Origin: Candidatus Amesbacteria bacterium GW2011_GWB1_47_19
GTDB lineage: Bacteria; Patescibacteriota; Microgenomatia; CAZETR01; Amesbacteraceae
DNA: 64,000 nt
NCBI GenBank assembly: GCA_001002325.1
Contig: LCNZ01000001.1
Coordinates: 67,773-131,772 of the forward strand
Direction: 5' to 3'
Below, in pieces: positions 8,205 to 63,785 of the stretch; position 1 is the first letter of the stretch; every line of letters starts with the position of its first letter. The notes under the pieces were generated by a model. The model worked only from the letters and a program-made list of their open reading frames with translations, ran no database searches and was not told the origin of the DNA. A program made the position numbers and the translations under genes.

Positions 8205-8355
8205 ATCTATTAAAATATGACCGAATATAATGCGAATATCAAGAAGGATTTGAGGTTGATCGTGGTAAAATCAAGCGTAATCGGCCAGATACCCAAGCAG
8301 TCTAAGGGGCTCGTCTGCAGAACGAGTATTCGCGGGTGCAAATCCCGCTCTGGCC

Positions 8356-36185: not shown

Positions 36186-37313
36186 ATGAAAGCTATAATA
36201 TTACAGGAGAACCTGAGTAAAAGCCTAGGTTTAGTGGGGAGGGTGGTGTCCAGTCGGGGTCAGATGCCGGTATTGGGAAACGTGTTAATAGAAGCCACAA
36301 AAGTGGGGCTGGTGCTGTCAGCAACCAATCTGGAAATGGGTTTGAGAGTGGAAGCGGGGGGTAAAGTAACGGAGGAGGGGGGGATAACGGTGCCGGCGAA
36401 GAATTTGGCGGAATATGCGGGATCTTTGGAATCGGGGAACGTGGAATTGACGGGGGAGGGTGAAAAGCTGAAAGTAAAAGGGGGAAAATCTGAGGCAACT
36501 TTTGCCGGGATTGCAGCAACCGAATTTCCGGTTATTCCCAGGCTGAACGAGAAAACTGCCAAGTCCGACAGGTACAAAATCAGCAGGAAGATCGTACTGG
36601 AAATCGCCCAACAAGTGGCATTTGCGGCCGCAGGAGATGAAAGCAGGCCGGTGCTGACCGGAATCAAACTGATGAAAACGGAAACAGGATTGACGGCCGT
36701 GGCCACTGACGGATTCAGGTTGAGCCGGAAAAGGATTGATAAAGCGGGATTGGGTGGGGGAGGAATTGGAGAGGCGGGATTGATTTTGCCGGCAAGAACA
36801 ATCTTAGAGCTGGCCAGATTGGCATCAGAAAGTAAAGGCGGGGAAATAATTATGGAAAAGGCAGAGGAAAATAACCAGGTGATTTTCGGATGCGACGGGA
36901 TTCAGCTGGTGTCAAGGATACTGGAAGGAAATTTTCCGGATGTGGAAAAAATAATTCCGGTTGAGAAAAAAACATCACTGACAGCAGACAGAGAAAACCT
37001 GTTGAGGGCGGTAAGATCGGCGTCAATTTTTGCCCGAGACAATTCTAATATCATCAGATTTAAAATGGATGCTTCCGGTTTTAAAATAACAGCTTCAGCT
37101 CAGCAGACCGGGGAAAGCGAGATTGAGTTGGAGGCGGAAAAAGAGGGTGAAGATGTGGAAATCGCTTTCAATTACCGCTATGTAATAGACTTTTTGGGAA
37201 GTACCGACATAGAAAGGGTGAGGCTGGTTTTGAACGGTAACCTGGCGCCGGGAGTGTGGTCATGGGAGGGGGACGAGAGTTTAATTCACCTGATCATGCC
37301 GGTGAGGGTTTAG
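36186..37313 (+). CDS. dnaN: DNA polymerase III beta sliding clamp
   Basis: MKAIILQENLSKSLGLVGRVVSSRG... with three-domain length, immediately downstream of dnaA. Confidence 0.9.
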   Translation: MKAIILQENLSKSLGLVGRVVSSRGQMPVLGNVLIEATKVGLVLSATNLEMGLRVEAGGKVTEEGGITVPAKNLAEYAGSLESGNVELTGEGEKLKVKGGKSEATFAGIAATEFPVIPRLNEKTAKSDRYKISRKIVLEIAQQVAFAAAGDESRPVLTGIKLMKTETGLTAVATDGFRLSRKRIDKAGLGGGGIGEAGLILPARTILELARLASESKGGEIIMEKAEENNQVIFGCDGIQLVSRILEGNFPDVEKIIPVEKKTSLTADRENLLRAVRSASIFARDNSNIIRFKMDASGFKITASAQQTGESEIELEAEKEGEDVEIAFNYRYVIDFLGSTDIERVRLVLNGNLAPGVWSWEGDESLIHLIMPVRV

Positions 37314-37903
37314 AGTTTTTGAACTTTCTCCGTTTGCTCTTCTATACCGCCAGATGAACCCTCCGGAACCGGTAAAGGCTGAAAGCGATGATATATGGGT
37401 TCCTGAAAAACCCCATAAACGGAAATAACATATTCAGTATTGTAGGTCCAGGAAGGTTTGGGGGCTACGTAGAGGGTTCTTTTATCCTGGCTGACCTGGG
37501 CGTTTACCGGCTGAAAAGGGGAAACAAAGACACGAATCGAGGTAAGGTTGATTTCCTGATCAAAAGTAAAAGCCAAAGCCATTTCGGGAAAAGCAAGCTT
37601 GGGTTGAGCGTCGGGGGGATAAATTTGCACCAATTTGGGGTCGGGAGTTGGATATTGGGTGGTGTTGGGTTGGATTATGACCGGAGGCGGGGGCGGGGGA
37701 GTAGGGGAGGAGATTTGCAGATAGAGATAAACGAGTGAAATAAGGGACAAAACGCACAATCCCAGAAGAATTTTTTTAGATTTAGGAGAAAAGCGCGAAA
37801 ACATGAATTTAATTACAGAAATAATTTTCCGGTTTGACCCAAATACCTCCAATAGATACCTCCATATGTAAATGGGTAAAGCCCATAGGATAAAGAGTAG
37901 CAA
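37310..37903 (-). CDS. membrane-anchored Pro-rich protein, hypothetical
   Basis: TM (ILLGLCVLSLISLVYLYL), a poly-Pro run and a beta-rich C-terminus. The start probably lies at an internal Met because the ORF overlaps its upstream neighbour. Confidence 0.35.
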   Translation of the reverse strand: MLLFILWALPIYIWRYLLEVFGSNRKIISVIKFMFSRFSPKSKKILLGLCVLSLISLVYLYLQISSPTPPPPPPVIIQPNTTQYPTPDPKLVQIYPPDAQPKLAFPEMALAFTFDQEINLTSIRVFVSPFQPVNAQVSQDKRTLYVAPKPSWTYNTEYVISVYGVFQEPIYHRFQPLPVPEGSSGGIEEQTEKVQKL

Positions 37904-40900
37904 TAATAGTTCCAGAGGGAAGATTGGTGCCAGTAGAGTATGAACCCGAGATGTGAGTTAACACTATTCTTACATTACCAGAAACATAATGTGCCCTGTA
38001 ACCAGAGCCAGCAGGATTGGCCTTACCCCAAGAAAAATTCCAGCGGACGGATTGACCATTGAGAAGGGGAAGTTTGACGTCAGCAACCCCACCACTTGGT
38101 GCTTTGACATCCATAGCATATCCGTAATAAGGACAACGGCTGGCAACGCCGGAGCAGACACTGGGGACACCTATGCTTGGACCGTAGCAGCCTGGCGCGT
38201 CTTGAGGGAGGGCCCATTTACAGGGCGTCCAACCTTGCCAGTAGGGGGTACTACCATGCCCAGTATCGTTAGAAGAGTTGTAAGAATAGTAAGTTATTAT
38301 TCCATCGTCTATGGGACAACTCGAGGGATCCCCCCAACCACCCCCCCCCCCCCCCCCCCCCCCACCGACACCACTATCGTCACCGGCAAAGAAGAAGGAA
38401 AGCGGGGTGGCGGGGATGACATAAGCGCCGGAGTTGATGATGAAGACAACAAAAGTAACAATGATCGGGATTACCAGGACGGTGATGACTATGGGTAAAA
38501 CACTAACGCCGGCTATGACTGTGACCACACCTGTAATTATTGAACCGCCGGTAGAAGCAATTTGCTGAAGAGATTGGACTCCCGGACCGGTGCCGGTAAA
38601 GAATGACTGGAAGGCGGAGCCAACAAAACCGCCGACACCAGTGGCTGCCAAGGAGCCGGTAATAGAAAGTCCGGCAAGCTGGGCACCAATAAGGCCGATG
38701 ATGGCACCAATAATCATGGGAGCGTTTTCTTTGATTTTTTTGGCGAGTTTTTTAATGACCCCCCAAGTGACATCTAATACTAGACCAACGACAAACGCGG
38801 CAACGTTTCCGATAACAGGAACTGTCGATCCGACAGCCTGAAGAGCTAAATGAAAGCCGAGCTTTATGGCGATTTTTTTAGCAATGGAAGTGACAGTCTT
38901 ACCAATTACAGTCTTGGCTAATTTTCCCCAAGCGGCTTTGGCGATACTTTTTACGGGGGAGAGGACCCTGTTGCCGATAATGGTGTAGCGGTGACCGGCA
39001 AGCCAGGAAGATCCTGTGGCACTTCGAACAGCGCCAGTAATGCCCGACTTAGTGAGAGAGAGGGAAATCTGTTTGCCAATTGTCGAGGAGAAGAACTGGC
39101 GACCGAGGGGGGAGGCGGAGAAACGCTCCAAAACCTCCAACACCCGGGGGTGGAGCAGGTCGCGGGGTTTTTGGCTGACGAATTTAAGCAGGTCGGAGAA
39201 TGGTCCGGGCAAATTGAGAGACCCCAAATGGGATTGGAGATGGAATGCCTGGGGAGGACCGAACTGGCGGAACAGGTTGGAAAACAATACTTGGGGATTC
39301 AGGTTCTGCAGATTGAGTCCAGAGGTTTGGGAGGGCTGTTTTGAGCGAAGAAGTTCTACGGACAAGGGAAACAATTGCTGAAAGGCTTGATTTTGGACAG
39401 AGAAAAGTTTGTCCGCGGGAGTGGAAGGGGCGCCGGCAAATCCAGCAAGAAAATAACCGGCCTTTACGAATGGGACCGACTGTTTGGACAGAATCTTGGC
39501 GATGGGTGAAGGCAGGCCGCCCATACGGAGCTGGTGATACAGATATTGAGCAGCCGCAGCATCGTCTTTGAGTTTGTAATTGAACATGGTGAAGTGTTCC
39601 CCGAGGTCCCTGAGAAGTATTTCCGGAGAACTTACTTTGTTGGCTTCCAATTTTGGAAGGAAGGTGAGCTGAAGATAGCGGGAGACTTCCTGGGGAGTGG
39701 CATCGGGACGGTAGAGTTTGAAGAGAAGAAGGTGGTCGGACAGTTCCGCGGCAAGCTGGGGGGTGACATTGGCCCGAGTTAATCTGGTGGAGACAACTAA
39801 ATGGAAAGAGGCCAGTTCAGGGTGGAGGGAGAGAAGTGCCGGAATAGCTGGAGACAGAACAGAAAAAGCTTGCGCCAGAGACATCCTGCCGCCTGAGGAG
39901 GAGAGGATTAGGTCAACAGCCGCGGGAATGGTGGTAGCAGGAGAAGCCGCCAGGTGGGTGGTCAGGAGAGGTTGTAAGGCAAACAGGATTCTGGATTCCG
40001 GATAATGGCTCGGAAGAGTAGAAAAAGAGGAAGATAAAGAGGATTTGATAGCCAGGAGATTCTCCGGAGATCCGGGAATATCGGAGAGATTGAGAGCCGA
40101 GGTCGAATGTAAATACTGAACAAGAGGCGAGCGCAGGTCCCGTAGAACCGGCGGGGCATGGGGATCAAAAATTTGTGCGATCTGGGAAATTGATTCAACG
40201 TACTCACTTGGAATGTAAGTGGAGGCGGAGGCGGAAAAAATTCTAGTAATATGGTCGGGTAACGAGGCGGGATTTGTGCCGAGAAGGGGAAATAGCTGAT
40301 TGAGAATTTGAGAGGCCTCATTCGGCGCCAGGGGGGCTGTAGACAGGATTTGGGAGGCAGCTGCAAGAAAATGTACCGGAGCGTAGGTTTGACTGAAAGT
40401 TTGGTGGGATGAGGAGGCGAGTACGGAGGCAATCTGTGGGGAAAAACCGGAAGATTTAAAGGCGTTTTCCAGCTCAACTAGGGTGGCAGTGGGGTGCGAT
40501 GTAAGGGTGGAATGGAGAGTAATGTGGGCAGAGACAATTTGTTCCGGAGTCAGCTTGAGTTTAGGTGAGAGGGAGAGAAGGGTGGATTGGGCAGCGGACA
40601 AGGAGGAGGATAATATTTCTGTGGCTTGGGGAGGGAGATTGGCGGCAGAGGTATATGCTGCAAAGATATGACTGGATAGGAACTCTGATTTTTGCGCAGA
40701 AATACCCGCGGTACGGAGCCTGGCGGTGATAATCTGGGGGGTTAAGATAGAGAGGGGGGTATCGGATAACAGATCGCGCAGCGCGGATGAAGCCTGGGTG
40801 GTTTGAGATGGCGAAAGATTAAGTTGGGATGAGAAGGAATGAATTACATCCAATGCTGAAGTTTGAGCAATTGAGACAGCCGGCGGGGCAATGAGGGCAG

Positions 40901-41249
40901 ACTGATACGCCTGTGAAAGGCCGGTAGAAAGGGCGGAAATCTGGGGGGAGGTAAGACGCGCAGTGGAGGGAAGCTTCTCAATAAGAGAACGGACGGCCTC
41001 GGGGGAAGATTGGGACGCCAGAGCAGGAAAAACCGATTGAAAAACGGCTTGGGTCTGGGCGGAAGAAAGTTTGAGAGACACAGAAAGTTCTGATAACGTG
41101 TCATTGGCGGCTACAAGTGCAAACGGAGATACGGAAATTCCGGCAGGGGTCAGGATGACGGCGGGAGCAATTAAGGCCGAACGGAAAGAAGAGTGGGAGG
41201 ATTTGGCAACGACGGCAGCCTGGGAAGAAGACAGACCGGCCCGGGCCAC
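37809..41249 (-). CDS. giant low-complexity surface/membrane protein with C-terminal M23/LytM-like (possibly degenerate) peptidoglycan hydrolase domain; T4SS-associated
   Basis: About 800 aa of S/A/L/Q-rich low-complexity sequence, then a cluster of TM helices, a Gly run encoded by a 23-nt homopolymer, and a Cys-rich region. The C-terminus (GYRAHYVSGNVRIVLTH...GFTHLHMEVSIGGIWVKPENY) aligns with the M23 peptidase at 10975 (GYGNMVVITH...GPHLHLEILENGRTVNP). YAMD stands in for HxGxD. Confidence 0.5.
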   Translation of the reverse strand: MARAGLSSSQAAVVAKSSHSSFRSALIAPAVILTPAGISVSPFALVAANDTLSELSVSLKLSSAQTQAVFQSVFPALASQSSPEAVRSLIEKLPSTARLTSPQISALSTGLSQAYQSALIAPPAVSIAQTSALDVIHSFSSQLNLSPSQTTQASSALRDLLSDTPLSILTPQIITARLRTAGISAQKSEFLSSHIFAAYTSAANLPPQATEILSSSLSAAQSTLLSLSPKLKLTPEQIVSAHITLHSTLTSHPTATLVELENAFKSSGFSPQIASVLASSSHQTFSQTYAPVHFLAAASQILSTAPLAPNEASQILNQLFPLLGTNPASLPDHITRIFSASASTYIPSEYVESISQIAQIFDPHAPPVLRDLRSPLVQYLHSTSALNLSDIPGSPENLLAIKSSLSSSFSTLPSHYPESRILFALQPLLTTHLAASPATTIPAAVDLILSSSGGRMSLAQAFSVLSPAIPALLSLHPELASFHLVVSTRLTRANVTPQLAAELSDHLLLFKLYRPDATPQEVSRYLQLTFLPKLEANKVSSPEILLRDLGEHFTMFNYKLKDDAAAAQYLYHQLRMGGLPSPIAKILSKQSVPFVKAGYFLAGFAGAPSTPADKLFSVQNQAFQQLFPLSVELLRSKQPSQTSGLNLQNLNPQVLFSNLFRQFGPPQAFHLQSHLGSLNLPGPFSDLLKFVSQKPRDLLHPRVLEVLERFSASPLGRQFFSSTIGKQISLSLTKSGITGAVRSATGSSWLAGHRYTIIGNRVLSPVKSIAKAAWGKLAKTVIGKTVTSIAKKIAIKLGFHLALQAVGSTVPVIGNVAAFVVGLVLDVTWGVIKKLAKKIKENAPMIIGAIIGLIGAQLAGLSITGSLAATGVGGFVGSAFQSFFTGTGPGVQSLQQIASTGGSIITGVVTVIAGVSVLPIVITVLVIPIIVTFVVFIINSGAYVIPATPLSFFFAGDDSGVGGGGGGGGGGWGDPSSCPIDDGIITYYSYNSSNDTGHGSTPYWQGWTPCKWALPQDAPGCYGPSIGVPSVCSGVASRCPYYGYAMDVKAPSGGVADVKLPLLNGQSVRWNFSWGKANPAGSGYRAHYVSGNVRIVLTHISGSYSTGTNLPSGTIIATLYPMGFTHLHMEVSIGGIWVKPENYFCN
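38341..38363. repeat. homopolymeric C23 (G23 on the coding strand) tract inside the giant surface-protein gene
   Basis: Counted directly: 23 consecutive C. On the minus strand it encodes the Gly run in ...DDSGVGGGGGGGGGGWGDP. Confidence 0.85.
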
Positions 41250-41588
41250 CAGATGTCGGGCTGGGAGGCAAAAGTGCGGGAGACAGTATCGCGGACAGAA
41301 GAGACGATGTTTTCAGGCAGCTTGAGGGAGTCGGAGGAAGCCAGAACGGCACCCTGGGCAGCGGCGGCGGCGACGGAGACCCGGGCGGGAGCAGCGGAGA
41401 GAGACTTCTCAAGGCGGGGAACAAGAGTCCTGACGGAATCGGCGGAAAGGCCGGCGGAACTTAAGGCCGAGGAAAGATCGGAGGCGGAAAGCTGAGGTCC
41501 CTGGGCAGCAATGACCTTATCGACCGCAGCAGCAACGGCAGCGGTATCTTTGGCAGACAAACCCAGATCGGAGAGAGCGGCAGGCAAG

Positions 41589-42500
41589 TCAGACCTGAGA
41601 ACGGCGGCGACAACGGCGGGAGCAGCGGCGGCAACCGGGGGAAGGATGACGGCGGGAGCAATTAACGGAAGCTAAATTTTGAGATAAACTAGATACAGCA
41701 GCAGTGGCAGCTTGAGTATCATCTGAAGGCAAATTAATCTGAGGTATAAGGGTAGTGAGACGGGAATAAAATTGGTCAGGGGTAGCTTGAGGGTGAATAA
41801 GTTTCTCCACAAAGAGGACATTTGCGAGATTGTCTGAAGCTGAATCAGTGAGATGGATAGGTGAAACCACCGATGAGCGGATTGATTGACGCAACTCTTT
41901 GAGATTGGGATAAATAAAAGTGAGAGTATCGGCAAGGGGGGCAATAAGATTGGTTATTGACTGGGAGGGCAACACAAATTCCAAAGTTCTGGCCAAATCG
42001 GGCAGAGGAACGCTTTCAGGATTGGTAGCCACCCGGCGGTAAATAGTGGGCTCGACTACATCATTGAAAAATTCTGCCGCGACTTTGCCCTGAGGGCTAC
42101 GTTGAGCGACCGACCGACTGATCATTTCCAACTGGGATAGCATTTTGTCGTGGACCGTGGGGTTTTTGTGCCGGATTTTCTCCGCTTCCTGTTCCCGGAG
42201 CCTGAGGTGATTTTCATAATCATCAACTAAAGTCTTGAGAATGCCGTACATGGAGTCGATTTTTTCCTGAGAGAGTTCAAGCAGCGCCAGATTCAAAGCC
42301 AGCAGGGGTTCTTCATCTTTTTTAATTAATTTGAGTCTTTCAAAGGGGAGAATTTGTTCAACGACAGACCAGATTTTTATTTCCACGGAAGCAGGTGTTT
42401 CTCCTGGGGGAATTTCAGGAGGAATAAGAGATAGGCTGTAAATTAATTTCTGAAGACGGACCAGTTGCTGAGTCTTGGTTGAGGTATAGACGTCAGGCAT
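41589..42500 (-). CDS. T4SS-cluster protein, hypothetical (coiled-coil/low-complexity), translationally coupled to VirB4
   Basis: Its start overlaps the VirB4 stop by 8 nt. The last approximately 25 aa (CSRRHPSPGCRRCSRRCRRRSQV) look out of frame. The coding appears to continue in the 41171..41587 ORF and then into 37809..41249. Confidence 0.35.
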   Translation of the reverse strand: MPDVYTSTKTQQLVRLQKLIYSLSLIPPEIPPGETPASVEIKIWSVVEQILPFERLKLIKKDEEPLLALNLALLELSQEKIDSMYGILKTLVDDYENHLRLREQEAEKIRHKNPTVHDKMLSQLEMISRSVAQRSPQGKVAAEFFNDVVEPTIYRRVATNPESVPLPDLARTLEFVLPSQSITNLIAPLADTLTFIYPNLKELRQSIRSSVVSPIHLTDSASDNLANVLFVEKLIHPQATPDQFYSRLTTLIPQINLPSDDTQAATAAVSSLSQNLASVNCSRRHPSPGCRRCSRRCRRRSQV

Positions 42501-44331
42501 GAGGTTTCTCCTGGTCGGTAATTAACCGCATGGCGGCTGCTTTCTGGGCTAATAACTCCGAGGGTTTGGTAGTGACAAGCTGGTGTTCGTCGGGGGAGGC
42601 GACAAAGCGGACGGCAACATGGTTATTGCCGGCAAAAAACAGGCCTTCACCGACGTTGGCGGAGAGCAGAAGATGTTTTTCCCCCTCGGAAAGATAAAAA
42701 ACCTGGGCGATTCGATCAACAGCCGCGGGAGACTGCTTCATGAGGATCTGGATGGATGAATTGGTGACGATGGCTTTGCCAAAATCAGTATTTAAGAAAT
42801 CTTCCACATCCTGAGTAATGGTGGTTAATCCGAGGAAGTATTTACGGGCGCGTTTGGCAATTCCGTAGAGGAAATTGGCCGAATCGGGATAGCGCATGAG
42901 ATACCAGGCTTCGTCAACCACCAGGATCCTTTTTTTGAGATCGCGGCGCATCTTGGTCCAGATATAATCGAGAATAATAAAAATGGCAATAGGTTTGAGT
43001 GAATCTTCAAGGTCACGAACAGAAAAAACAGTGAAAGGATTTTTGAGAGCGACGTTACTGGGCTGATCAATAATGCCTGTAAAACTACCTTTGACGAATT
43101 TTTCCAGACGATCCGCCAGTGAAGCAGCCTGGGGTTCTTCCATACCTATGAAAGCCTTGTATAGATCCTCCATGAGGGGGGGGACTTTTCTCTGAGTGAC
43201 CGGATCGGTGGTGATGCCTTTCATACGGTAAGACAGATTTAATGCCCGGTCCAAAAGAGCTTCCTCAGTGGGGTTGAGGGCACCCATGATGACCTTGAAA
43301 AGCGAATGCAGTGACTGAATCTTGAGGTTGAGTTCATTTTCTTCGGAGGTGTCGGTGAGGGCAGATAAATCGAAGGGATTAATGCGGTTTTGGGAGTTGT
43401 AAGCAAAATTTATATAATCCCCACCAACCACGTCACACAGAGGCTTGTATTCGTTTTCGGGGTCGATAACAATTACTTCCGTGCCGAACATGAGAGAACG
43501 AAGAATTTCCAGTTTGATGGCGTAAGACTTGCCTGCCCCGGCCTTGGCAAAAACGACGGTGTTGGCGTTTTCCAATGTGAACCGGTCGAAAATAATCAGG
43601 CTGCCGTTGTGTTCATTAATTCCATAGAGAACCCCTTCGTTTGAGGTAAGCTCGGAAGAAGTAAACGGGAAAGTAGTGGCCAGAGAGGTGGTATCCATAT
43701 TGCGGGTGACCATAAGGTGGTCAATACAGGTCGGGAGGGTGGTTTTGAAACCCTCGCCCTGTTCCAGGACGGTGGGAATTGAAGAAAGCAGAAGTGAAGA
43801 CAGAGTACTGCTGACCTGCTTGCTGGTGGTTTCCAATTCCGATGCCGATTCGGCGGGGATGGTGACATAAAGCGAAAACTGAAAAAAGCGTTCGATACCT
43901 TTGACCAGCTGATCCTGGAGAGACAGGGCGTCTTCGAGCTTTGCCTGGGTACCGGGATCGACAACCCGACCACGCTGCATGTCAGTGCTGAGTTCGGCTT
44001 CCATTTCAGCGATTTTGCGGCGGAGGTCATCCAGGGTAGATTTGCTTTCCACGGGATAGACGAACATGGAAATATTAAGAGAATGATCAAAATTGATTAG
44101 CTGAGAGAGCCAGTTGGCATCCACAAACCGGCGGTTGATGGTGGTGAAAAAGGAACGGTAGTAATACTCATTTATTTTGAGAAGATTAAAATCTATCGAA
44201 ATTTGCTGGGGGGCGATAATGTCCTGAACTGTTTTGGCCAGGGACAGAGTTTTGGTAACAGGTCCGGAGGAAGGAGTGGGGGCAGGGTGGGTTACGGTAT
44301 CAGATGATGGTCTTTTTTTGAAAAGCGGCAT
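42493..44331 (-). CDS. type IV secretion system VirB4/TrbE/CagE-family ATPase, ATPase portion
   Basis: Walker A VVFAKAGAGKSYAIK, a Walker B-like ILVVDEAWYL, and the AAA-like/DUF87 layout typical of monoderm VirB4 proteins (PrgJ/TcpF-like). Confidence 0.8.
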   Translation of the reverse strand: MPLFKKRPSSDTVTHPAPTPSSGPVTKTLSLAKTVQDIIAPQQISIDFNLLKINEYYYRSFFTTINRRFVDANWLSQLINFDHSLNISMFVYPVESKSTLDDLRRKIAEMEAELSTDMQRGRVVDPGTQAKLEDALSLQDQLVKGIERFFQFSLYVTIPAESASELETTSKQVSSTLSSLLLSSIPTVLEQGEGFKTTLPTCIDHLMVTRNMDTTSLATTFPFTSSELTSNEGVLYGINEHNGSLIIFDRFTLENANTVVFAKAGAGKSYAIKLEILRSLMFGTEVIVIDPENEYKPLCDVVGGDYINFAYNSQNRINPFDLSALTDTSEENELNLKIQSLHSLFKVIMGALNPTEEALLDRALNLSYRMKGITTDPVTQRKVPPLMEDLYKAFIGMEEPQAASLADRLEKFVKGSFTGIIDQPSNVALKNPFTVFSVRDLEDSLKPIAIFIILDYIWTKMRRDLKKRILVVDEAWYLMRYPDSANFLYGIAKRARKYFLGLTTITQDVEDFLNTDFGKAIVTNSSIQILMKQSPAAVDRIAQVFYLSEGEKHLLLSANVGEGLFFAGNNHVAVRFVASPDEHQLVTTKPSELLAQKAAAMRLITDQEKPHA

Positions 44332-44332
44332 G

Positions 44333-44965
44333 TCAGGTTTCAGTGGGTTTTGGCAAAATAACTCTACTACCTAAAAGATCGGGATTGTAGTAGTCGAAAA
44401 ACAGCTGAAGAAGTTCCTGGGAATTGAGCTGGCGGGCCCGCAAGCCGATACGAGCCAGAAGACGGAGAAGATGATCGCGTTTTGGAGCCAGATTGGTGGC
44501 TGCGCGATCGAAAATGTCCGCTTTGGCCAGGGGCAAACCTTTTTTCCGGGGGCCGAGGGCGCCCATGGCGGAACTAAAACCCAATTCCATTGAGCTGAAA
44601 GGAATGGAAATAAAGAATTTTTTGTCCAATACATTACCCTGACGGACAATGGCTTTGATGAAATCCCGGTATTTGGTGAGCTGCGTACGGATTTTGGGGG
44701 CAGAAGTTTTGGCCAGACGCTCTTCCAGTTTCTGCAGGTAATCGGATATATCCTTACGTTTGGAAGAAATAACTATCTGGATGGAAAAAGTCAGAGAATT
44801 TAAAAGTTGGGCGTAGGCATACATGGTGGCTTCCTGCTCTTTTTCGGAAAAAAGCCCGAAGTTGATGGCGCCGACCTCGAGAATCAGGCAGGCGGAACCG
44901 TCTTTTAATAAGACCAGATCGTTCTGAATATCTTCAATGTCCAGATGATCACGGGTAAGGTTCAT
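44333..44965 (-). CDS. VirB4-like N-terminal domain (separate ORF)
   Basis: LVLLKDGSACLILEVGAINFGLFSEKEQEATMYAYAQLLNSL resembles the VirB4/TrbE N-terminal region. It ends 2 nt before the ATPase ORF begins, in a different frame. Confidence 0.55.
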   Translation of the reverse strand: MNLTRDHLDIEDIQNDLVLLKDGSACLILEVGAINFGLFSEKEQEATMYAYAQLLNSLTFSIQIVISSKRKDISDYLQKLEERLAKTSAPKIRTQLTKYRDFIKAIVRQGNVLDKKFFISIPFSSMELGFSSAMGALGPRKKGLPLAKADIFDRAATNLAPKRDHLLRLLARIGLRARQLNSQELLQLFFDYYNPDLLGSRVILPKPTET

Positions 44966-44983
44966 AGTTAGAGTATAAGGTTG

Positions 44984-46039
44984 TCAGGCATTTTGGGGTT
45001 GGGCAGTGATAACGATGGGTGGGATAAGGGAATTGGCGACTTTGATGGAAACAGGGGGAAAATTGAAACCGTCTTTTTCGGAATTGATGACGTATGAGCC
45101 GGAGGGGAGGGGAATGGCAATCTGGAATTGGCCGAGACGATTGGTACGCAGAGCCCGGGCAGGGATGCCCGTCTGAGAATCGAGAATTTCCAGGGTGACA
45201 CCGGACATGGGTGAACCGGCGGAATCGTTGATCTGGCCGGAAAGAATATTCGGTTGGGTGGGAGCAGTGACAGCGGAAGTGAGTGTGGCCTGAGGTGCGG
45301 GGGGAGGGGGAGTGATAGTAGGCCGGGGGCCGGGTCCGGTCAGGGGAATATTGGGAAGAGGAGGCAGGGGCGAAACCACGGAGGAGGCGGAAGGGGCAGC
45401 TTTGGCTGGAAGAGGGGAGATAACCGGTTCCGGGACAGCAGCTTCGGCCGGGGCAGTGACCGGTGAGATTTGGGGCGGAGGGGTAAATGCGTGATATGCG
45501 GTTTGGGTGGGGGAATCCGGGGTGGCGGGACTTTGAACCCGGGCGGTACCGGGGAAGGTGGACGGAAGAGTGACCGGAGTCGGGGCAGTCGGGAACGGAG
45601 ATTCGGCGGGAGGGGGAGAAATAACGGGGGATGGTTCGGGCGCTGGTTCGGGGGCGAGGGAGGTGACAAATGAAGTGAAACTAGTAGCGGGAGATAGTGG
45701 GGCAGCAGGTGGAGGGGCGGCCGGAATTCGGGGAACAGTTTTAGTTGAAGGGGGGGAAGGGGCCCAGACAAATTCCGTGGGTGAATAAATAGCTTTCATA
45801 AAAGCGGAAATCCATTTGGCGAAAGGCCGGCCATTGATGGGAAGAAAGGCCATCGCAGCACCCATGACGGCGCAAATAAAGACAGCGGGGTATTTGATGA
45901 TGACCGGCAAGGGGGTGCGGAAGATCAGAAAGGCCATGACCAGGCCACCAGCCAAGTAGAGAAACTGCTTAAGGGTCATGTCCCCGACCAGGCGGAATTC
46001 GTAAGAAGAAATGTTTTGCGGGACAGGATGTTGTTCCAT
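44984..46039 (-). CDS. VirB3-like two-TM protein with Pro/Ala-rich linker and C-terminal Ig-like (CarboxypepD_reg-like) domain
   Basis: N-terminus has two adjacent hydrophobic helices (LYLAGGLVMAFLIF / AVFICAVMGAAMAFLPI) and sits directly upstream of VirB4, as in monoderm T4SS. C-terminus SGQINDSAGSPMSGVTLEILD...GSYVINSEKDGF. Confidence 0.45.
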   Translation of the reverse strand: MEQHPVPQNISSYEFRLVGDMTLKQFLYLAGGLVMAFLIFRTPLPVIIKYPAVFICAVMGAAMAFLPINGRPFAKWISAFMKAIYSPTEFVWAPSPPSTKTVPRIPAAPPPAAPLSPATSFTSFVTSLAPEPAPEPSPVISPPPAESPFPTAPTPVTLPSTFPGTARVQSPATPDSPTQTAYHAFTPPPQISPVTAPAEAAVPEPVISPLPAKAAPSASSVVSPLPPLPNIPLTGPGPRPTITPPPPAPQATLTSAVTAPTQPNILSGQINDSAGSPMSGVTLEILDSQTGIPARALRTNRLGQFQIAIPLPSGSYVINSEKDGFNFPPVSIKVANSLIPPIVITAQPQNA

Positions 46040-46214: not shown

Positions 46215-48623
46215 ATGAGTGACGATATGAGCCAAGAAATACCAAAAGGGATTGTGCCCGGGGGGCAGGTAAAGAGTGAAAAAAAGGATATCGTCGGCAA
46301 ACCCGAATCAGGGAGGTCATTGAGGGATGAACTCAAGGGACAAGATGCAAACGCAATAGTTCGAGAGAGTACAGGTCCGCTTGGAAGTAGAGAGACACCT
46401 CTTGGAGAAAATCGGGGCAGCTGGCGTGAACAGGAACAAAAGAAAAGGGGACCAGGTGTGTTGTTGACAGAAAAACTTAAAGAAGAGCCAAAGGAGGCTG
46501 AGCCAGAAGATACCAGCTTGGGAAGAAGGCTGGAAAATGTGCTGGTGGGGATGCTTGCAACGGCTCAAGCGTTTGATGAGGCAGGGGAGTTGGTGAGAGC
46601 AATAACAAGGAAACGAGAAAGCGGAGAGCCTGTAACCCATGCAGACCAAATTAGACCTGAACTGGCAAAATTATATAAAAAGTTAGCCGGATCAAGAGGG
46701 GCCAGGCAACATGCCGATATGGAGACTGAGGATTTGGTTAGGAATGAATTGCTGAGCGGGGTGCGGCCATTTCAGGAGATTCAAGACGACATTAGAGAGG
46801 CGTTTAAAATATCAGACCCACAGGAAAGGGAAAAACGGATTAAAGAGTTGCGTAAGGAAAGGGCTCCACTGGAGATGATTGCAGAAGGTATAGGGCTATT
46901 TGATGATGTGCGAAACGATACAAAAACAGAGCAAGACTGGCGGTTTTTTGAAAATGCCGGAGGGAATCTTCAGGACCATTCGGAGATTGCGCCAGAAAAC
47001 GATAAACTCTCTCGCAGCTTTCTGAATAATAGAATCACGGAAGTGAGAGGATTGCACGGTTACGATCCCAAAATGGACGGAATGATAGAGGAATACCGGG
47101 AGGTGGCGAAGGAGAATTGGGCTTGGGCGATGAGAGCTGCAAGGGGGGAAGCAACTATTGATGCCGATACTAGGAAAAGAGTTGAGGCGAGGGGGTGGGG
47201 GACGATTCCCCAAACAAGCCTGGTGGAAGAGGCGAGAGGGTGGTTAGAGAAGGTGAGGGGAGTTAACGAGAGGCAGGCGAGGGAGCAGCAAATGGAACAC
47301 GAGCGTCTATTAGCCGAAAAGATGGGGCAAGGTGCGGGGGGAGGGGGGGGAGCAGAAGTTGAAGTTAGAGAGGTTAATGCCAGCGGGGACAGGTGGAGCG
47401 CCAGGTTTATGGAAAAACTGGGACTACCTGTGAATTTTGTGATACCACCACAAGGGCCCAGGGCTCCGGAAATCAGGGTGGAAACGGCTTCTGCACTGGA
47501 GAATGCCTATGATACAAATGGAGTTCCCGTATTTATAAACCCGAATACTGTTGAAGGACAGTATTTCATAATGTCCTGTTCAAGCCAGGAGAAGGCTAGG
47601 CTGTTTTATTGGGGAGTGTTGCCGTGGATAAGATTAATAACTTTGGGCAGGCACGACGGGAAATTTTCAACTTTGTATGATCCGAAAACCGGGAGTGGTT
47701 TGATAGGAGAGCTAGGATTGTCCTTAAGGGGTTTGGCAACTGCTTTTGAAAATGATGAGGAGGCAAAGAGATGCCTGGCGATTATTCTACAAATGAATGA
47801 GCAGGAATATCCTGGCGGAGGAGGGAGAAGAGTACTTGATGGCCGCAGAACCATGAATACTGATGATGTGCATTTTGCGGAGAGTAAAGCTCCGGAATAC
47901 ATGCGGTTGCTTAGGAGCGACCCCTTAAGGGAAGAATACGGACATACGGCGGTGAGAAACGAAATAAGAGATTTGGCGGCAGAAGTAGCGAAGTACGTGG
48001 GATGTGACAACGGTACCGCGGAAATAATGATGGAAGTAGCAACATTGATCAATGGGGGGCCGAAAATGGTTGAATACAGGAATATCCTGAAAAATCACGG
48101 AGAACTTTTGAGTGCCTATGCTGGTGAAAGAGCAGCTTTACCTCTATTGGCGAAGCTATTTATGGGAAAAAATGCCGGAGGGGATTCGGTTTATCTGGCG
48201 GATTATTTCAATAATCAGGGAGTCGACGGAATGTTTCAACAAATGAAGGGAATGTATGAAGACCGATGGCACAAAGCAATCGGCGGGATGGTGACAATTA
48301 AGTCGGTGATAGATTCGATACAGAAGATGTTGAGATGGGATGGTGATGCCAAGGAAATGGCTTCAAAATACGTGGTAAAATGTGAAATAGTTAAATTGCT
48401 AGCGAGTTTGAGAAAACTGGAATTTCCTTTAATCGAAAGGGGTACTGAGGCTGAGATTATTGGGCGGGCTAATGATATGCCTGATAAAATCGGCGAGGTG
48501 GTAAAGGAGTCATCACCTCCTGCCGAACAAGTGGCTAATGAGGTGGGCTGGGGATTATTGAATTCATTAACATTCGGAGGTGCCGGACTGCTTAGGTCAA
48601 TCAGGAGAAAAAGGGGAAGTTAG
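46215..48623 (+). CDS. large soluble hypothetical protein inside the T4SS locus (candidate substrate/effector)
   Basis: 802 aa with no TM and no recognised catalytic motif, a charged N-terminal region, and a C-terminus ending LLRSIRRKRGS (Arg-rich). Confidence 0.4.
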   Translation: MSDDMSQEIPKGIVPGGQVKSEKKDIVGKPESGRSLRDELKGQDANAIVRESTGPLGSRETPLGENRGSWREQEQKKRGPGVLLTEKLKEEPKEAEPEDTSLGRRLENVLVGMLATAQAFDEAGELVRAITRKRESGEPVTHADQIRPELAKLYKKLAGSRGARQHADMETEDLVRNELLSGVRPFQEIQDDIREAFKISDPQEREKRIKELRKERAPLEMIAEGIGLFDDVRNDTKTEQDWRFFENAGGNLQDHSEIAPENDKLSRSFLNNRITEVRGLHGYDPKMDGMIEEYREVAKENWAWAMRAARGEATIDADTRKRVEARGWGTIPQTSLVEEARGWLEKVRGVNERQAREQQMEHERLLAEKMGQGAGGGGGAEVEVREVNASGDRWSARFMEKLGLPVNFVIPPQGPRAPEIRVETASALENAYDTNGVPVFINPNTVEGQYFIMSCSSQEKARLFYWGVLPWIRLITLGRHDGKFSTLYDPKTGSGLIGELGLSLRGLATAFENDEEAKRCLAIILQMNEQEYPGGGGRRVLDGRRTMNTDDVHFAESKAPEYMRLLRSDPLREEYGHTAVRNEIRDLAAEVAKYVGCDNGTAEIMMEVATLINGGPKMVEYRNILKNHGELLSAYAGERAALPLLAKLFMGKNAGGDSVYLADYFNNQGVDGMFQQMKGMYEDRWHKAIGGMVTIKSVIDSIQKMLRWDGDAKEMASKYVVKCEIVKLLASLRKLEFPLIERGTEAEIIGRANDMPDKIGEVVKESSPPAEQVANEVGWGLLNSLTFGGAGLLRSIRRKRGS

Positions 48624-48632
48624 AATTTAGTT

Positions 48633-50258
48633 TCACGAGCCGGCTTTTTTACCCCAACCGGAGATTGTATTAGAGAAGCTTCTCGCGGCTTTGGCAGCCG
48701 ATTCCAGGGAGGACGCGGCTTGTTTGTCAGCCGGTAAACCTCCTGCTCCAATTTGACCCGCGGCATACTCAAGCGATGAGGCACCTAAACCAACACCTTT
48801 AGAGGGAAGGAGAAAGGCGGGGCCGAGGGCTTGGCCAATGGCTGTGCCGTATTTGAATTGCGGAGCTTTGAGGGCGTCGCGGACCATTTCAGCCGCTTTG
48901 GGAATAAGAGCAAGAATGGCGTAACCCATGACGAAAGAAAAAAGGAAACCGACTGTACCGACAAAAGGCAGAGAAGGCCAGCCCGAAGTAGTCAGGCCGG
49001 TATTTACGGTACAGCCGAGTGGGGTGAGGCGCCATGTTGTACCGGAAAAAGCGGCGAGAATAGCATCGATAATTGTCCGAATGGGAGCAGGAAACGGAAT
49101 TAGGGAACAAAGAGGTTGCCAAAAAAGCATATTCAGAAGCAGCATGAGGGGGACGACAACAAAGACAGCGGCATTGGCAATTAAATTTCTGAACCAGGCG
49201 CCGAATCCCTGGTTGCCGGGAAGAAGCCCGAGCATAATCTGCCAGGGACCGACAATAATAAGAAACATCAAGGTGAGGTAAGTCTTAAGAAGCATCCAGA
49301 AGACGCGCAACAGCAGCCAACTGATGAGGACGATGAGGACGATGCTGATGAGCGTAAGAACGGGAAGGATAAAGTTTAGGAGAGGAATGAAGATGGAAAA
49401 GCCGCCTGCTGCACTAACGAGGATAAATGGAAGCATATAGTATGCAAGGACAACTGCGAAGCCACCGGTGGCAAAAAAGCGGATAGAACTACCCATAAAG
49501 GCTGCCCCAAAAACTCCACTGTAGCTTAAAGCCCCCAACACCAGGGTGATGATCACAAAAATGGAATCCAGGACCAGACCGGCAATTGCGTAGGAGAAAG
49601 TGACTAAAAGCAAAGTAATAATAATTTTGGGTATCATGAGCTGAACGGAGATGGCAGTCTGGGGATTGATCTTGACCCGGAACATGATCATGAATGCGGC
49701 GGCGACAAGGATGACAATCATGAGCAGATAGACGATATTCCTGGAGGTAGCCCAGAGCCGATTGATAGCTGATAGGCTGGTGAAACCATATCCCTGGGCG
49801 TGGGCAGGGGAAGCTATGGAGAATTTGGCCAGGCTATTGCTGATATCTTCAATGCCGGAAGCGGGAAGATTGGTATAAATTCCTGATATTCCAGCCATAG
49901 CCAAACCCGGTATGCCAAGAGCGGCATAATTTTGTAGGGAGGGGGATTCCTGAGATAAAAGTTGCCGGAGAAAATCAATGATTTCACTTGACTCGTCCAG
50001 TCCGGCCGTAGGGTTGAGGATGAGATATAGACTGTCCAGGATCCAGACCACCTGGGCATAGGTGTAACGTTCTCCAAAAATGGCGTCCTGTGGATCCGCG
50101 GTAACTTTCTGGCCGAACTCTTCGGGGGAGGGGTTATACCAGGGAGTGGCAGCGGCGGCGTGCGGAGTGAACGTTGAGAGTAATAGCGTAAAAGAATACA
50201 AGAGGACTAGAAATGTGAAAGATGCCTTTTTTATGAAAGAGGACATGTGGTTATACAT
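48633..50258 (-). CDS. VirB6/TrbL-like polytopic membrane protein
   Basis: Signal-peptide-like N-terminus, an approximately 150-aa periplasmic-like region, at least 6 TM helices and a Gly/Ala-rich C-terminal tail. It sits in the T4SS cluster. Confidence 0.5.
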   Translation of the reverse strand: MYNHMSSFIKKASFTFLVLLYSFTLLLSTFTPHAAAATPWYNPSPEEFGQKVTADPQDAIFGERYTYAQVVWILDSLYLILNPTAGLDESSEIIDFLRQLLSQESPSLQNYAALGIPGLAMAGISGIYTNLPASGIEDISNSLAKFSIASPAHAQGYGFTSLSAINRLWATSRNIVYLLMIVILVAAAFMIMFRVKINPQTAISVQLMIPKIIITLLLVTFSYAIAGLVLDSIFVIITLVLGALSYSGVFGAAFMGSSIRFFATGGFAVVLAYYMLPFILVSAAGGFSIFIPLLNFILPVLTLISIVLIVLISWLLLRVFWMLLKTYLTLMFLIIVGPWQIMLGLLPGNQGFGAWFRNLIANAAVFVVVPLMLLLNMLFWQPLCSLIPFPAPIRTIIDAILAAFSGTTWRLTPLGCTVNTGLTTSGWPSLPFVGTVGFLFSFVMGYAILALIPKAAEMVRDALKAPQFKYGTAIGQALGPAFLLPSKGVGLGASSLEYAAGQIGAGGLPADKQAASSLESAAKAARSFSNTISGWGKKAGS

Positions 50259-50285
50259 TAAATGATTGTATATAGTTTGGCAAGG

Positions 50286-63412: not shown

Positions 63413-63785
63413 TGGTGGAGATGGGGGGAGTTGAACCCCCGTCTGAAATGGTCTGAAAATCCGGTTGTACAAGCTTTTTGTCCGATGAAGGACGGTTTGC
63501 AGTTAGTGGTCTTGGCTGAAGCGAGTCTAACTACAGTACTGCTGCAGCGCACCCCGATTGGTTTTCGCCTTGATAATGCAGTCGGGGAAGCAAAATTAAG
63601 ACGCTCTTCGTTCCAGCTTAAGCGAATGCGTACGCAGAACGAGAGATGAAAGGATTGATCTTGGCGACCAATTCTCCCACACGTGCTTTTAAGTCAGCAC
63701 TTTAGGTTGAACCTGATTTACGAGTAGTGTTCGAACTCGGCTTGCCGAATTTAAAGGTGCCAATTCATCGATGCCCGGCATCCCC
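63413..63785 (-). ncRNA. ssrA: tmRNA (ssrA)
   Basis: The minus-strand 5' end GGGGAUG pairs with the 3' CAUCUCC-ACCA end, giving a 7-bp acceptor stem with G3:U70. The T-arm is GGGGGUUCAACUCCCCCC. An internal ORF-like frame GCC AAG AUC ... GCA UUC GCU UAA gives a tag ending AYAFA*. Found by eye, not by a tmRNA scanner. Confidence 0.7.

What the first reader, a model, noticed from the sequence alone, without database searches (positions are those of the whole stretch)
38341..38363. 23-nt homopolymeric C/G tract inside the giant surface protein, just upstream of its hydrolase-like domain
A run of 23 C (G on the coding strand) encodes a poly-Gly linker between the TM cluster and the Cys-rich/M23-like C-terminal domain. 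Tracts this long are highly prone to slipped-strand mispairing. A +/-1 change would truncate the protein before the M23-like domain, which is a classic phase-variation (contingency-locus) configuration. Or it is an assembly artefact.
Basis: partly seen in the sequence, partly recalled or inferred. Interest (0 to 1): 0.6.

Follow-up and report, generated by a model that had tools for sequence, protein, structure and literature searches.

The report
Poly-G run is probably assembly artefact
The 23-base G/C run is in the deposited sequence, but ten other assemblies of the same strain show an interrupted GGT/GGG glycine-codon stretch there, so it is most likely a sequencing and assembly artefact in an ordinary poly-glycine linker, not a genetic on/off switch.

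Summary
The C23 run (38341-38363, G23 on the coding strand) is in the window. It is unique there: the next longest C run is 6 and the longest G run is 8. It lies in frame in a giant membrane protein, between the last transmembrane helix and a C-terminal Cys-rich domain that I confirm has an M23/LytM fold. I recovered ten other assemblies of the same Rifle-aquifer Amesbacteria strain, with 0-5 mismatches over 5.5 kb. Every one has a different sequence in this 18-105-nt stretch, and none has G23. Most show G8 T GGT GGT G5 T GGT GG... The window's G23 equals that 23-mer with its four T's read as G, which is the best-known systematic Illumina error (GGT read as GGG). Two assemblies of equal length differ only by G-versus-T/A calls, including calls in the unique flank. 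Three assemblies carry N's here, and at least one contig ends inside the stretch. The cleanest assembly gives an intact 1579-aa ORF with 15 Gly in mixed codons and a longest G run of 8. Seven of eight N-free versions stay in frame. Relatives encode Gly-rich linkers with mixed codons. Real in-frame linker-length polymorphism remains possible.

The parts
38341..38363 (-). G23 (C23 on +) as deposited. It is probably G8 T GG T GG T G5 T GG, or (GGT)n G8, with the T's called as G.
38330..38372 (-). The whole G-rich (GGN)n stretch, GGT GTC GGT G23 T GG TT G6, coding G V G10 W G. This segment differs in every assembly (18-105 nt).
38406..38843 (-). Cluster of hydrophobic transmembrane segments ending in the family motif FIINSGAYVIP.
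37812..38336 (-). C-terminal 175-aa domain with an M23/LytM fold. It holds all 6 Cys of the protein. Invariant residues are H27, D76, H128 and H155-x-H157.
37809..41249 (-). The 1146-aa ORF as it reads in the window (C-terminal part of the gene).
41171..42500 (-). N-terminal part of the same gene. In the window it is split into ORFs 41589-42500 and 41171-41587 because the window lacks 8 bp at about 41662 and 25 bp at 41250. In L044 the gene is one ORF of 1579 aa.
42493..44331 (-). VirB4-type ATPase (TraG P-loop) immediately upstream.
44333..44965 (-). TraC-like protein. PF26593 is recorded for the identical gene in other assemblies.
44984..46039 (-). PrgI (VirB3-like) protein.
37310..37804 (-). 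164-aa ORF just downstream. I used it as the handle to recover the other assemblies.

Best explanation
The locus encodes a flexible poly-glycine tether. In the cleanest assembly the tether has about 15 Gly. In the reconstruction from the two k127 assemblies it has about 20.

The tether joins the last membrane helix of a giant protein associated with a type IV secretion system (T4SS) to an extracytoplasmic, Cys-rich M23/LytM peptidoglycan-peptidase-like domain. The gene is 1579 aa when correctly assembled.

At the DNA level the tether is an imperfect (GGN)n stretch rich in GGT and GGG, and its longest true G run is about 8.

The uninterrupted G23 in the window is a consensus error. Short Illumina reads that read the G-rich strand miscall the T of GGT as G. 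The period-3 repeat then lets assemblers collapse or expand the stretch in steps of three.

Shown here:
- the domain architecture;
- the disagreement among assemblies;
- the G-versus-T/A pattern of that disagreement.

Inferred:
- the T-interrupted version is the true one;
- the miscall mechanism;
- the tether function.
For: 1. Eleven assemblies of one strain give eleven different versions of this stretch, between identical flanks (0-5 mismatches over 5.5 kb). None of the other ten reproduces G23.
2. L024, L025, L026, L028 and the contig end of L043 share GGT G8 T GG T GG T G5 T. The 23 nt G8TGGTGGTG5TGG become exactly G23 if the 4 T's are read as G. The observed G-run lengths are 8, 11, 20 and 23, all equal to 8+3k. 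That is what results when G8 merges with neighbouring GGT units.
3. L026 and L027 have the same length and differ at 8 positions, each G versus T or A. Two of these lie in the unique 3' flank, where every other assembly has A and T. G miscalls therefore did enter consensus sequences here.
4. GGT read as GGG is the strongest systematic Illumina error motif (PMC3295828). The reads of this project are 150-bp short reads.
5. Three assemblies carry N's in the stretch (L022, L024, L025). The L043 contig ends inside the stretch, and the tool listed 11 similar places without showing them. L046 ends about 45 nt upstream of it. The JGI contig L001 starts just 3' of it.
6. The only assembly with an intact 1579-aa ORF (L028/L044, MEGAHIT k141) reads GGT GGG GGG GGT GGT GGT GGG GGT GGT GGC GGA GGT GGA GGC GGT. 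It contains C and A, which G miscalls cannot create.
7. The window assembly has two other lesions in the same gene, missing 25 bp and 8 bp.
8. Relatives have Gly-rich linkers at the same position in mixed codons. The syntenic ortholog L016 has a longest G run of 8. P0078 has 9 Gly in five different codon orders. Fourteen further loci have no G or C run of 9 or more and no A or T run of 10 or more.
9. Seven of eight N-free versions are in frame, with a rough probability of 0.003 if lengths were random.
Against: - No raw reads could be examined, so the true sequence is inferred from assemblies that partly share read sets and are not fully independent.
- Pure G runs of 11 and 20 also occur in other assemblies. 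This could mean that a real long run exists in some cells.
- L028 (15 codons, with GGC/GGA) and the L026/L027 reconstruction (20 codons, GGT/GGG only) cannot be turned into each other by G miscalls alone. Some real allelic difference therefore probably exists.
- One assembly (L021, G8 T G6) is out of frame.
Confidence: 0.78

Rival explanations
1. This is a true contingency locus. A real, long, uninterrupted poly-G tract slips by single bases and switches the M23 domain on and off, while the N-terminal and membrane parts are still made.
For: - The tract is in frame in the window, and +/-1 shifts stop translation 8 or 22 codons downstream.
- Tract length differs among assemblies of one strain.
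- One assembly (L021/P0151) is frame-shifted and predicts a 1094-aa truncated protein.
- The run goes against codon usage and against the local strand skew.
Against: - Most other assemblies show T interruptions at fixed positions.
- Differences are G-versus-T/A substitutions and multiples of 3, not single-base slips. Seven of eight N-free versions are in frame.
- The one out-of-frame version differs from the window by 19 nt and lacks the motif between the two G runs, so it is not a unit slip.
- No second long G/C tract occurs in 64 kb.
- Orthologs use mixed codons.
Confidence: 0.06
2. The linker is a genuinely unstable triplet (GGN) repeat. Closely related cells carry poly-Gly tethers of different lengths (for example 15 versus 20 Gly), changed in frame by slippage or recombination. 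This tunes the reach of the M23 domain rather than switching it. This reading is compatible with G23 itself being an artefact.
For: - L028 (15 codons, with GGC GGA GGT GGA GGC) and the union of L026 and L027 (20 codons, only GGT/GGG) differ in ways that G miscalls cannot explain, while their flanks are identical.
- Seven of eight N-free versions are in frame.
- Linker length and Gly content vary widely across the family: 17-53 aa in the short-linker members, with Gly runs of up to 9 in the other members.
Against: - Collapse of a period-3 repeat by assemblers also gives multiples of 3.
- Short versions such as L029 (G8 TGGTT G6) look like collapses.
- There is no read-level evidence.
Confidence: 0.3
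3. A real homopolymer serves transcriptional or translational slippage (programmed frameshifting) to make two protein isoforms from one gene.
For: Both shifted frames end soon after the tract, so a shorter isoform is conceivable.
Against: - The homopolymer itself is not reproducible.
- The shifted frames encode no conserved sequence, only 8- or 22-codon tails.
- Relatives lack any slippery run.
Confidence: 0.02

Closest known systems
Poly-G/C contingency loci of Neisseria, Campylobacter and Haemophilus (for example hmbR/hpuAB; PMC3786947, PMC8355987)
   Same: As deposited, this is a G/C homopolymer inside an ORF for an envelope protein, and a frame shift would truncate the product.
   Different: - The known tracts are perfect, about 8-17 nt long, reproducible, vary by single units, and occur at many loci per genome.
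- Here the run is not reproduced in other assemblies of the same strain.
- Variation is by T/G substitutions and triplets.
- It is the only such run in 64 kb.
Systematic Illumina base-call error at GGT (T read as G), Meacham et al. 2011 (PMC3295828)
   Same: The template is rich in GGT. The differences between assemblies are G versus T/A on the G-rich strand and extend into the 3' flank (L027).
   Different: That paper describes errors in reads. Here the errors appear to have reached assembled and deposited consensus sequences, combined with repeat collapse. This is inferred, because no reads were seen.
PrgK of Enterococcus faecalis pCF10 (T4SS cell-wall hydrolase with a LytM domain; PDB 8s0u)
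   Same: - It is encoded next to PrgI and the VirB4-type ATPase.
- It is membrane-anchored.
- It has a LytM/M23-fold domain, and 8s0u is among the fold hits.
   Different: - No SLT or CHAP domain was detected here.
- The protein is far larger (1579 aa), with a long S/L/A-rich N-terminal region and a polytopic membrane cluster.
- The M23 domain is C-terminal, Cys-rich and lacks the canonical HxxxD motif.
T4SS of Patescibacteria, homologous to the monoderm conjugation machinery (PMC12102498)
   Same: The cluster holds PrgI/VirB3, a TraC/TrsD-like protein and VirB4 next to dnaA/dnaN. That paper notes a location near the origin, and peptidase genes downstream of virB4 that are essential in Southlakia.
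   Different: The paper reports that VirB6 homologues are scarce in Microgenomatia. The giant polytopic M23 protein seen here is not described there, as far as I read.

Membership tests
SSR-mediated phase-variable (contingency) locus | A perfect mononucleotide tract above the slippage threshold inside the ORF | tested here: inconclusive
   G23 is present in the window, but the tract is interrupted by T in 8 of 10 other assemblies of the same strain. Only a G8 run is reproducible.
SSR-mediated phase-variable (contingency) locus | Tract length differs among clonal relatives by single repeat units, switching the reading frame | tested here: not met
   Seven of eight N-free versions are in frame. 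Differences are multiples of 3 and G-versus-T/A substitutions. The single out-of-frame version differs by 19 nt.
SSR-mediated phase-variable (contingency) locus | A frame shift truncates or abolishes the product | tested here: met
   In silico, +1 and -1 shifts give stops 22 and 8 codons after the tract, removing the M23 domain.
SSR-mediated phase-variable (contingency) locus | Several such tracts per genome | tested here: not met
   There is no other C run longer than 6 or G run longer than 8 in the 64-kb window. The rest of the genome was not seen.
SSR-mediated phase-variable (contingency) locus | Reversible, high-frequency switching within a lineage | not testable with these tools
   This needs reads or cultures.
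Peptidase M23 / LytM domain | The characteristic beta-sheet fold | tested here: met
   The AlphaFold model has pLDDT 92.2. The top Foldseek PDB hits are M23/LytM proteins: 6muk, SpoIIQ, Csd1-3, ShyA, lysostaphin, LytM, EnvC and PrgK. E-values run from 1e-4 to 1e-2 and query TM-scores from 0.4 to 0.5.
Peptidase M23 / LytM domain | HxH motif | tested here: met
   H155-L-H157-x-E is invariant in 28 family members. It aligns to the HvHfE of SpoIIQ in the profile search.
Peptidase M23 / LytM domain | HxxxD motif that supplies two zinc ligands | tested here: not met
   D76 is invariant in YGYAxD, but the residue four positions before it is an invariant Gly. The invariant H27 (GHGS) could substitute, which is an untested inference.
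Peptidase M23 / LytM domain | Match to Pfam PF01551 | tested here: inconclusive
   The window protein has no hit at E<=1. 14 of 28 family members hit PF01551, best E-value 5e-6. The profile search against PDB sequences hits only M23/LytM chains, with E-values from 9e-4 to 0.1.
Monoderm T4SS cell-wall hydrolase (PrgK/TraG/VirB1-like) | Encoded in a cluster with VirB4 and PrgI/VirB3 | tested here: met
   The gene order is PrgI, TraC-like, VirB4, then this gene. The ortholog L016 shares the dnaN and dnaA neighbours.
Monoderm T4SS cell-wall hydrolase (PrgK/TraG/VirB1-like) | Lytic transglycosylase (SLT) and/or CHAP domain | tested here: not met
   No Pfam family matches the 1146-aa ORF at E<=1.
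Flexible Gly-rich interdomain linker | Lies between two domains, with position conserved but sequence and length not conserved among homologues | tested here: met
   Across about 100 family members, the segment between FIINSGAYVVPP and CP(I/L)xGG is either 17-53 aa, often Gly-rich (Gly runs of 4-9 in P0003, P0007, P0020, P0051, P0066, P0078 and P0109), or about 140 aa (70-173) with an inserted domain.
Flexible Gly-rich interdomain linker | Encoded by mixed synonymous codons (selection acts on the protein, not on a DNA repeat) | tested here: met
   This holds for relatives L016, L017, L002, L004 and L008, and for the same strain in L028.

The most novel reading that the evidence does not exclude
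The G-rich (GGN)n stretch, with its G8 cores, is really hypermutable in this episymbiont-like CPR bacterium. It would produce tethers of different lengths and occasional frame-shifted cells that lack the M23 peptidase. That would diversify how its origin-proximal T4SS-like machine attacks or remodels cell walls. It would be the first contingency-type locus described in Patescibacteria.
Probability: 0.1. Interest if true: 0.55.

Novelty: not a real feature. Interest (0 to 1): 0.12.

Why it matters
The main value is cautionary. A striking homopolymer in a deposited CPR genome looks like a textbook phase-variation switch, yet it disappears when other assemblies of the same strain are compared. 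Scans for contingency loci in short-read metagenome-assembled genomes will pick up such GGT-rich glycine linkers as false positives.

The gene itself is of moderate interest. It encodes a 1579-aa polytopic protein with a divergent M23 domain, directly downstream of virB4 in a Microgenomates T4SS cluster. It is a candidate for the channel/hydrolase component that profile searches find scarce in that class (PMC12102498).

Tried and rejected
- Two exact-pattern scans of metagenome contigs with the tract flanks found nothing. The collection apparently lacks these records.
- The search for homologous proteins returned only the window protein itself and a 101-aa fragment, in three searches.
- The genome-contig scan found 14 distant relatives but not this species.
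- An exact look-up of the 1146-aa protein found no contig.
- Codon bias was rejected as the cause of the run. GGG is the rarest Gly codon on this strand.
- I first read G11 in L019 and G8TG6 in L018 as evidence for real length variation. I dropped that reading once eight more assemblies showed T interruptions, N's and G miscalls.
- The NCBI name 'Gram positive anchor' is not supported. The 1579-aa protein has no LPxTG-like motif.

Full report
**1. The observation**

The + strand carries 23 consecutive C at 38341-38363. Nothing comparable exists in the window. The next longest C run is 6 and the longest G run is 8.

The run lies in ORF 37809-41249 on the minus strand (1146 aa). There it reads GGT GTC GGT (GGG)x7 GGT GGT TGG GGG GAT, which translates as ...DDSGVGGGGGGGGGGWGDPSSCP....

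Codon bias does not explain it. GGG makes up 11% of Gly codons in minus-strand genes. Outside the tract it accounts for 6 of the 78 Gly codons in this ORF. Minus-strand genes are also C-rich on their coding strand.

Changing the run by +1 or -1 gives a stop 22 or 8 codons later.

**2. What the gene is**

*Organism and neighbourhood*
- The window comes from Candidatus Amesbacteria bacterium GW2011_GWB1_47_19, a CPR/Microgenomates genome.
- The gene follows PrgI (44984-46039), a TraC-like gene (44333-44965) and a VirB4-type ATPase (42493-44331). It lies next to dnaN and dnaA.
- This is the Patescibacteria T4SS, homologous to monoderm conjugation systems and often found near the origin (PMC12102498).

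*The C-terminal domain*
- The 175 residues after the Gly run form a conserved, almost always C-terminal domain. It has 149 cluster representatives at E<=1e-3.
- It holds all 6 Cys of the ORF.
- Invariant residues are H27, D76, H128, H155-x-H157 and E159.
- Pfam does not detect the domain in the window protein. 14 of 28 relatives hit Peptidase_M23.
- A family profile hits only M23/LytM chains among PDB sequences.
- An AlphaFold model (pLDDT 92) matches M23/LytM structures: 6muk, SpoIIQ, Csd1-3, ShyA, lysostaphin, LytM, EnvC, and the LytM domain of the T4SS hydrolase PrgK.
- The canonical HxxxD motif is absent.

*Family architecture*
The family is built as a variable N-terminus, then a TM cluster ending FIINSGAYVVPP, then a linker, then the domain. 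The linker takes one of two forms:
- 17-53 aa, often Gly-rich, with Gly runs of 4-9 in seven members;
- about 140 aa (70-173), with an inserted domain.

**3. How relatives encode the linker**

- The syntenic ortholog (L016, 67% identical in the domain) encodes GSGGGGGGDDGGGGG as GGT AGT GGT GGC GGT GGT GGC GGC GAC GAT GGG GGG GGT GGT GGT. Its longest G run is 8.
- P0078 encodes nine Gly as GGG GGC GGA GGA GGT GGA GGT GGT GGT.
- Fourteen further loci from other CPR genomes have no G or C run of 9 or more and no A or T run of 10 or more in about 16 kb each. Their linker Gly residues use mixed codons.

**4. The same strain in other assemblies: the decisive evidence**

The 90% cluster of the protein held two ENA members, and their DNA differs in the tract:
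- G11 in L019, which is in frame;
- G8 T G6 in L018, which is frame-shifted.

Over 15.7 kb, L019 has 0 mismatches to the window. At first this looked like real tract variation.

I then used the exact 164-aa downstream ORF, dnaN and VirB4 as handles. This recovered ten assemblies spanning the site, plus contigs ending at or just before it. All have 0-5 mismatches over 5.5 kb.

Between the identical flanks GACGATAGTGGTGTC and ATCCCTCGAG, every assembly differs:

| Assembly | Sequence of the stretch | Notes |
|---|---|---|
| window | GGT G23 TGGTT G6 | 37 nt |
| L020 | GGT G11 TGGTT G6 | in frame |
| L029 | GGT G8 TGGTT G6 | in frame |
| L021 | GGT G8 T G6 | out of frame |
| L022 | carries NN | NCBI DNMO01 |
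| L023 | ...GGTGGTGGGGGAGGTGGTGGTGGT G8 TGGTT G6 | net 87 nt shorter than the window; part of the upstream transmembrane region is missing |
| L024 | GGT G8 TGGTGGT G5 TGGTGGT G5 N9 T G6 | sibling GW2011 genome LCIP01 |
| L025 | carries N10 plus unrelated sequence | |
| L026 | GGT G8 TGGTGGT G5 TGGTGGT G8 T G20 TT G6 | k127, in frame |
| L027 | same length as L026 | k127, in frame |
| L028/L044 | GGT GGG GGG GGT GGT GGT GGG GGT GGT GGC GGA GGT GGA GGC GGT | k141, in frame |

Assemblies also break at this site:
- The L043 contig ends inside the stretch, as ...G8 TGGTGGT G5 TGGTGGTGGG. The tool noted 11 similar places that it did not show.
- L046 ends about 45 nt upstream of the stretch.
- The JGI contig L001 begins just 3' of it.

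**5. Why this is an artefact and not phase variation**

(a) The T interruptions recur at the same positions in five assemblies. G-biased errors cannot create a T, C or A, but they can erase one.

(b) The shared 23-mer G8 T GG T GG T G5 T GG becomes exactly G23 when its four T's are read as G. Equally, (GGT)5 followed by G8 gives G23. All observed G-run lengths (8, 11, 20, 23) equal 8+3k.

(c) L026 and L027 have equal length and differ at 8 positions, each G versus T or A. Two of these are in the unique 3' flank, where L027 has G and all other assemblies have A or T. G miscalls therefore did reach consensus sequences here.

(d) GGT read as GGG is the strongest systematic Illumina error motif (PMC3295828). 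These are 150-bp short-read data from a six-point time series of 0.1-um filtrates.

(e) Seven of eight N-free versions are in frame, a rough probability of 0.003 if lengths were random. This fits collapse or slippage of a period-3 repeat. It does not fit one-base switching.

(f) The window assembly has two further lesions in the same gene. It lacks 25 bp at 41250 and 8 bp near 41662, which split the gene into three ORFs. In L044 the gene is one ORF of 1579 aa, and its N-terminus matches that of the ortholog P0003.

(g) No other long G/C run occurs in the window.

**6. What remains open**

L028 has 15 Gly codons, including GGC and GGA. The union of L026 and L027 has 20 codons, only GGT and GGG. 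G miscalls alone cannot convert one into the other, while the flanks are identical apart from a few differences in the N-terminal repeat region.

Some real in-frame polymorphism of the tether is therefore plausible; I put it at about 0.3.

A reproducible G8 run remains. It is near the lower limit for slippage, but nothing here shows that it switches. I could not examine reads.

**7. Mechanism I commit to**

The stretch is a flexible poly-Gly tether. It lets an extracytoplasmic, disulfide-rich M23-like peptidase reach peptidoglycan from a polytopic membrane base in a T4SS-like machine. This is an inference from the architecture, from the fact that all the protein's Cys residues lie in this domain, from the family-wide linker position, and from the PrgK analogy.

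The G23 homopolymer is a sequencing and assembly artefact (confidence about 0.78).

**8. Novelty and score**

As a homopolymer switch, this is not a real feature. The linker itself is ordinary. Interest is low (0.12).

The most novel reading not excluded is real hypermutability of this stretch controlling the M23 domain in a CPR bacterium. I give it a probability of about 0.1.

Noticed in passing
window 41250 and about 41662; ORFs 41171-41587 and 41589-42500: Compared with other assemblies of the same strain, the window lacks 25 bp (CCCTCTCTGATTTGCAGAAGGAATT) at 41250 and 8 bp (CCCCTGTA) near 41662. This splits one gene into three ORFs. In L044 the gene is a single 1579-aa ORF corresponding to window 37809-42500. 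The region holds a direct repeat (TTAATTGCTCCCGCCGTCATCCT...) that leaves 100-N gaps in two ENA scaffolds.
   Followed up: partly
window 37809-46039: The giant polytopic M23 protein lies directly downstream of virB4 in a PrgI, TraC-like, VirB4 cluster beside dnaA/dnaN. PMC12102498 reports that VirB6 homologues are scarce in Microgenomatia. This protein could be the divergent channel/hydrolase component.
   Followed up: partly
window 37812-38336 (-): The C-terminal domain family is an M23 variant without the HxxxD motif. Its invariant residues are H27 (GHGS), D76 (YGYAxD), H128, H155-x-H157 and conserved Cys. Pfam misses it in this protein. The family has 149 representatives, almost always C-terminal in proteins of 250-1900 aa.
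   Followed up: partly
proteins P0006, P0009-P0011, P0013 and others: About half of the family carries a roughly 140-aa insert (starting ...SPYIDIEKT... and ending ...VVIGNPPIDCP) between the last TM helix and the M23 domain, in place of the short Gly-rich linker.
   Followed up: no
window 1-64000: GC skew of the + strand is positive in every 2-kb bin (0.04-0.45). Genes on both strands follow it, and there is no sign change at dnaA/dnaN (34.5-37.3 kb). If the origin were there, a switch would be expected.
   Followed up: no
L017 2103-2492: In another CPR genome the family member P0078 lies 300 bp downstream of a bAvd/23S_rRNA_IVP gene, the accessory protein of diversity-generating retroelements. 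HepT/MNT and BrnT/CopG toxin-antitoxin pairs follow it.
   Followed up: no
window 46215-53180: Three large ORFs (802, 541 and 964 aa) flanking the T4SS cluster have no Pfam match at E<=1e-3.
   Followed up: no
window 37809-41249 (-): NCBI names the protein 'Gram positive anchor', but the full 1579-aa sequence has no LPxTG-like motif. Its N-terminal 1200 aa are 14% Ser, 14% Leu and 12% Ala.
   Followed up: yes
window 63413-63785 (-) and 8283-8357 (+): A tmRNA gene (85.6 bits) and a tRNA-Cys gene. These are the only RNA genes detected in the window.
   Followed up: no
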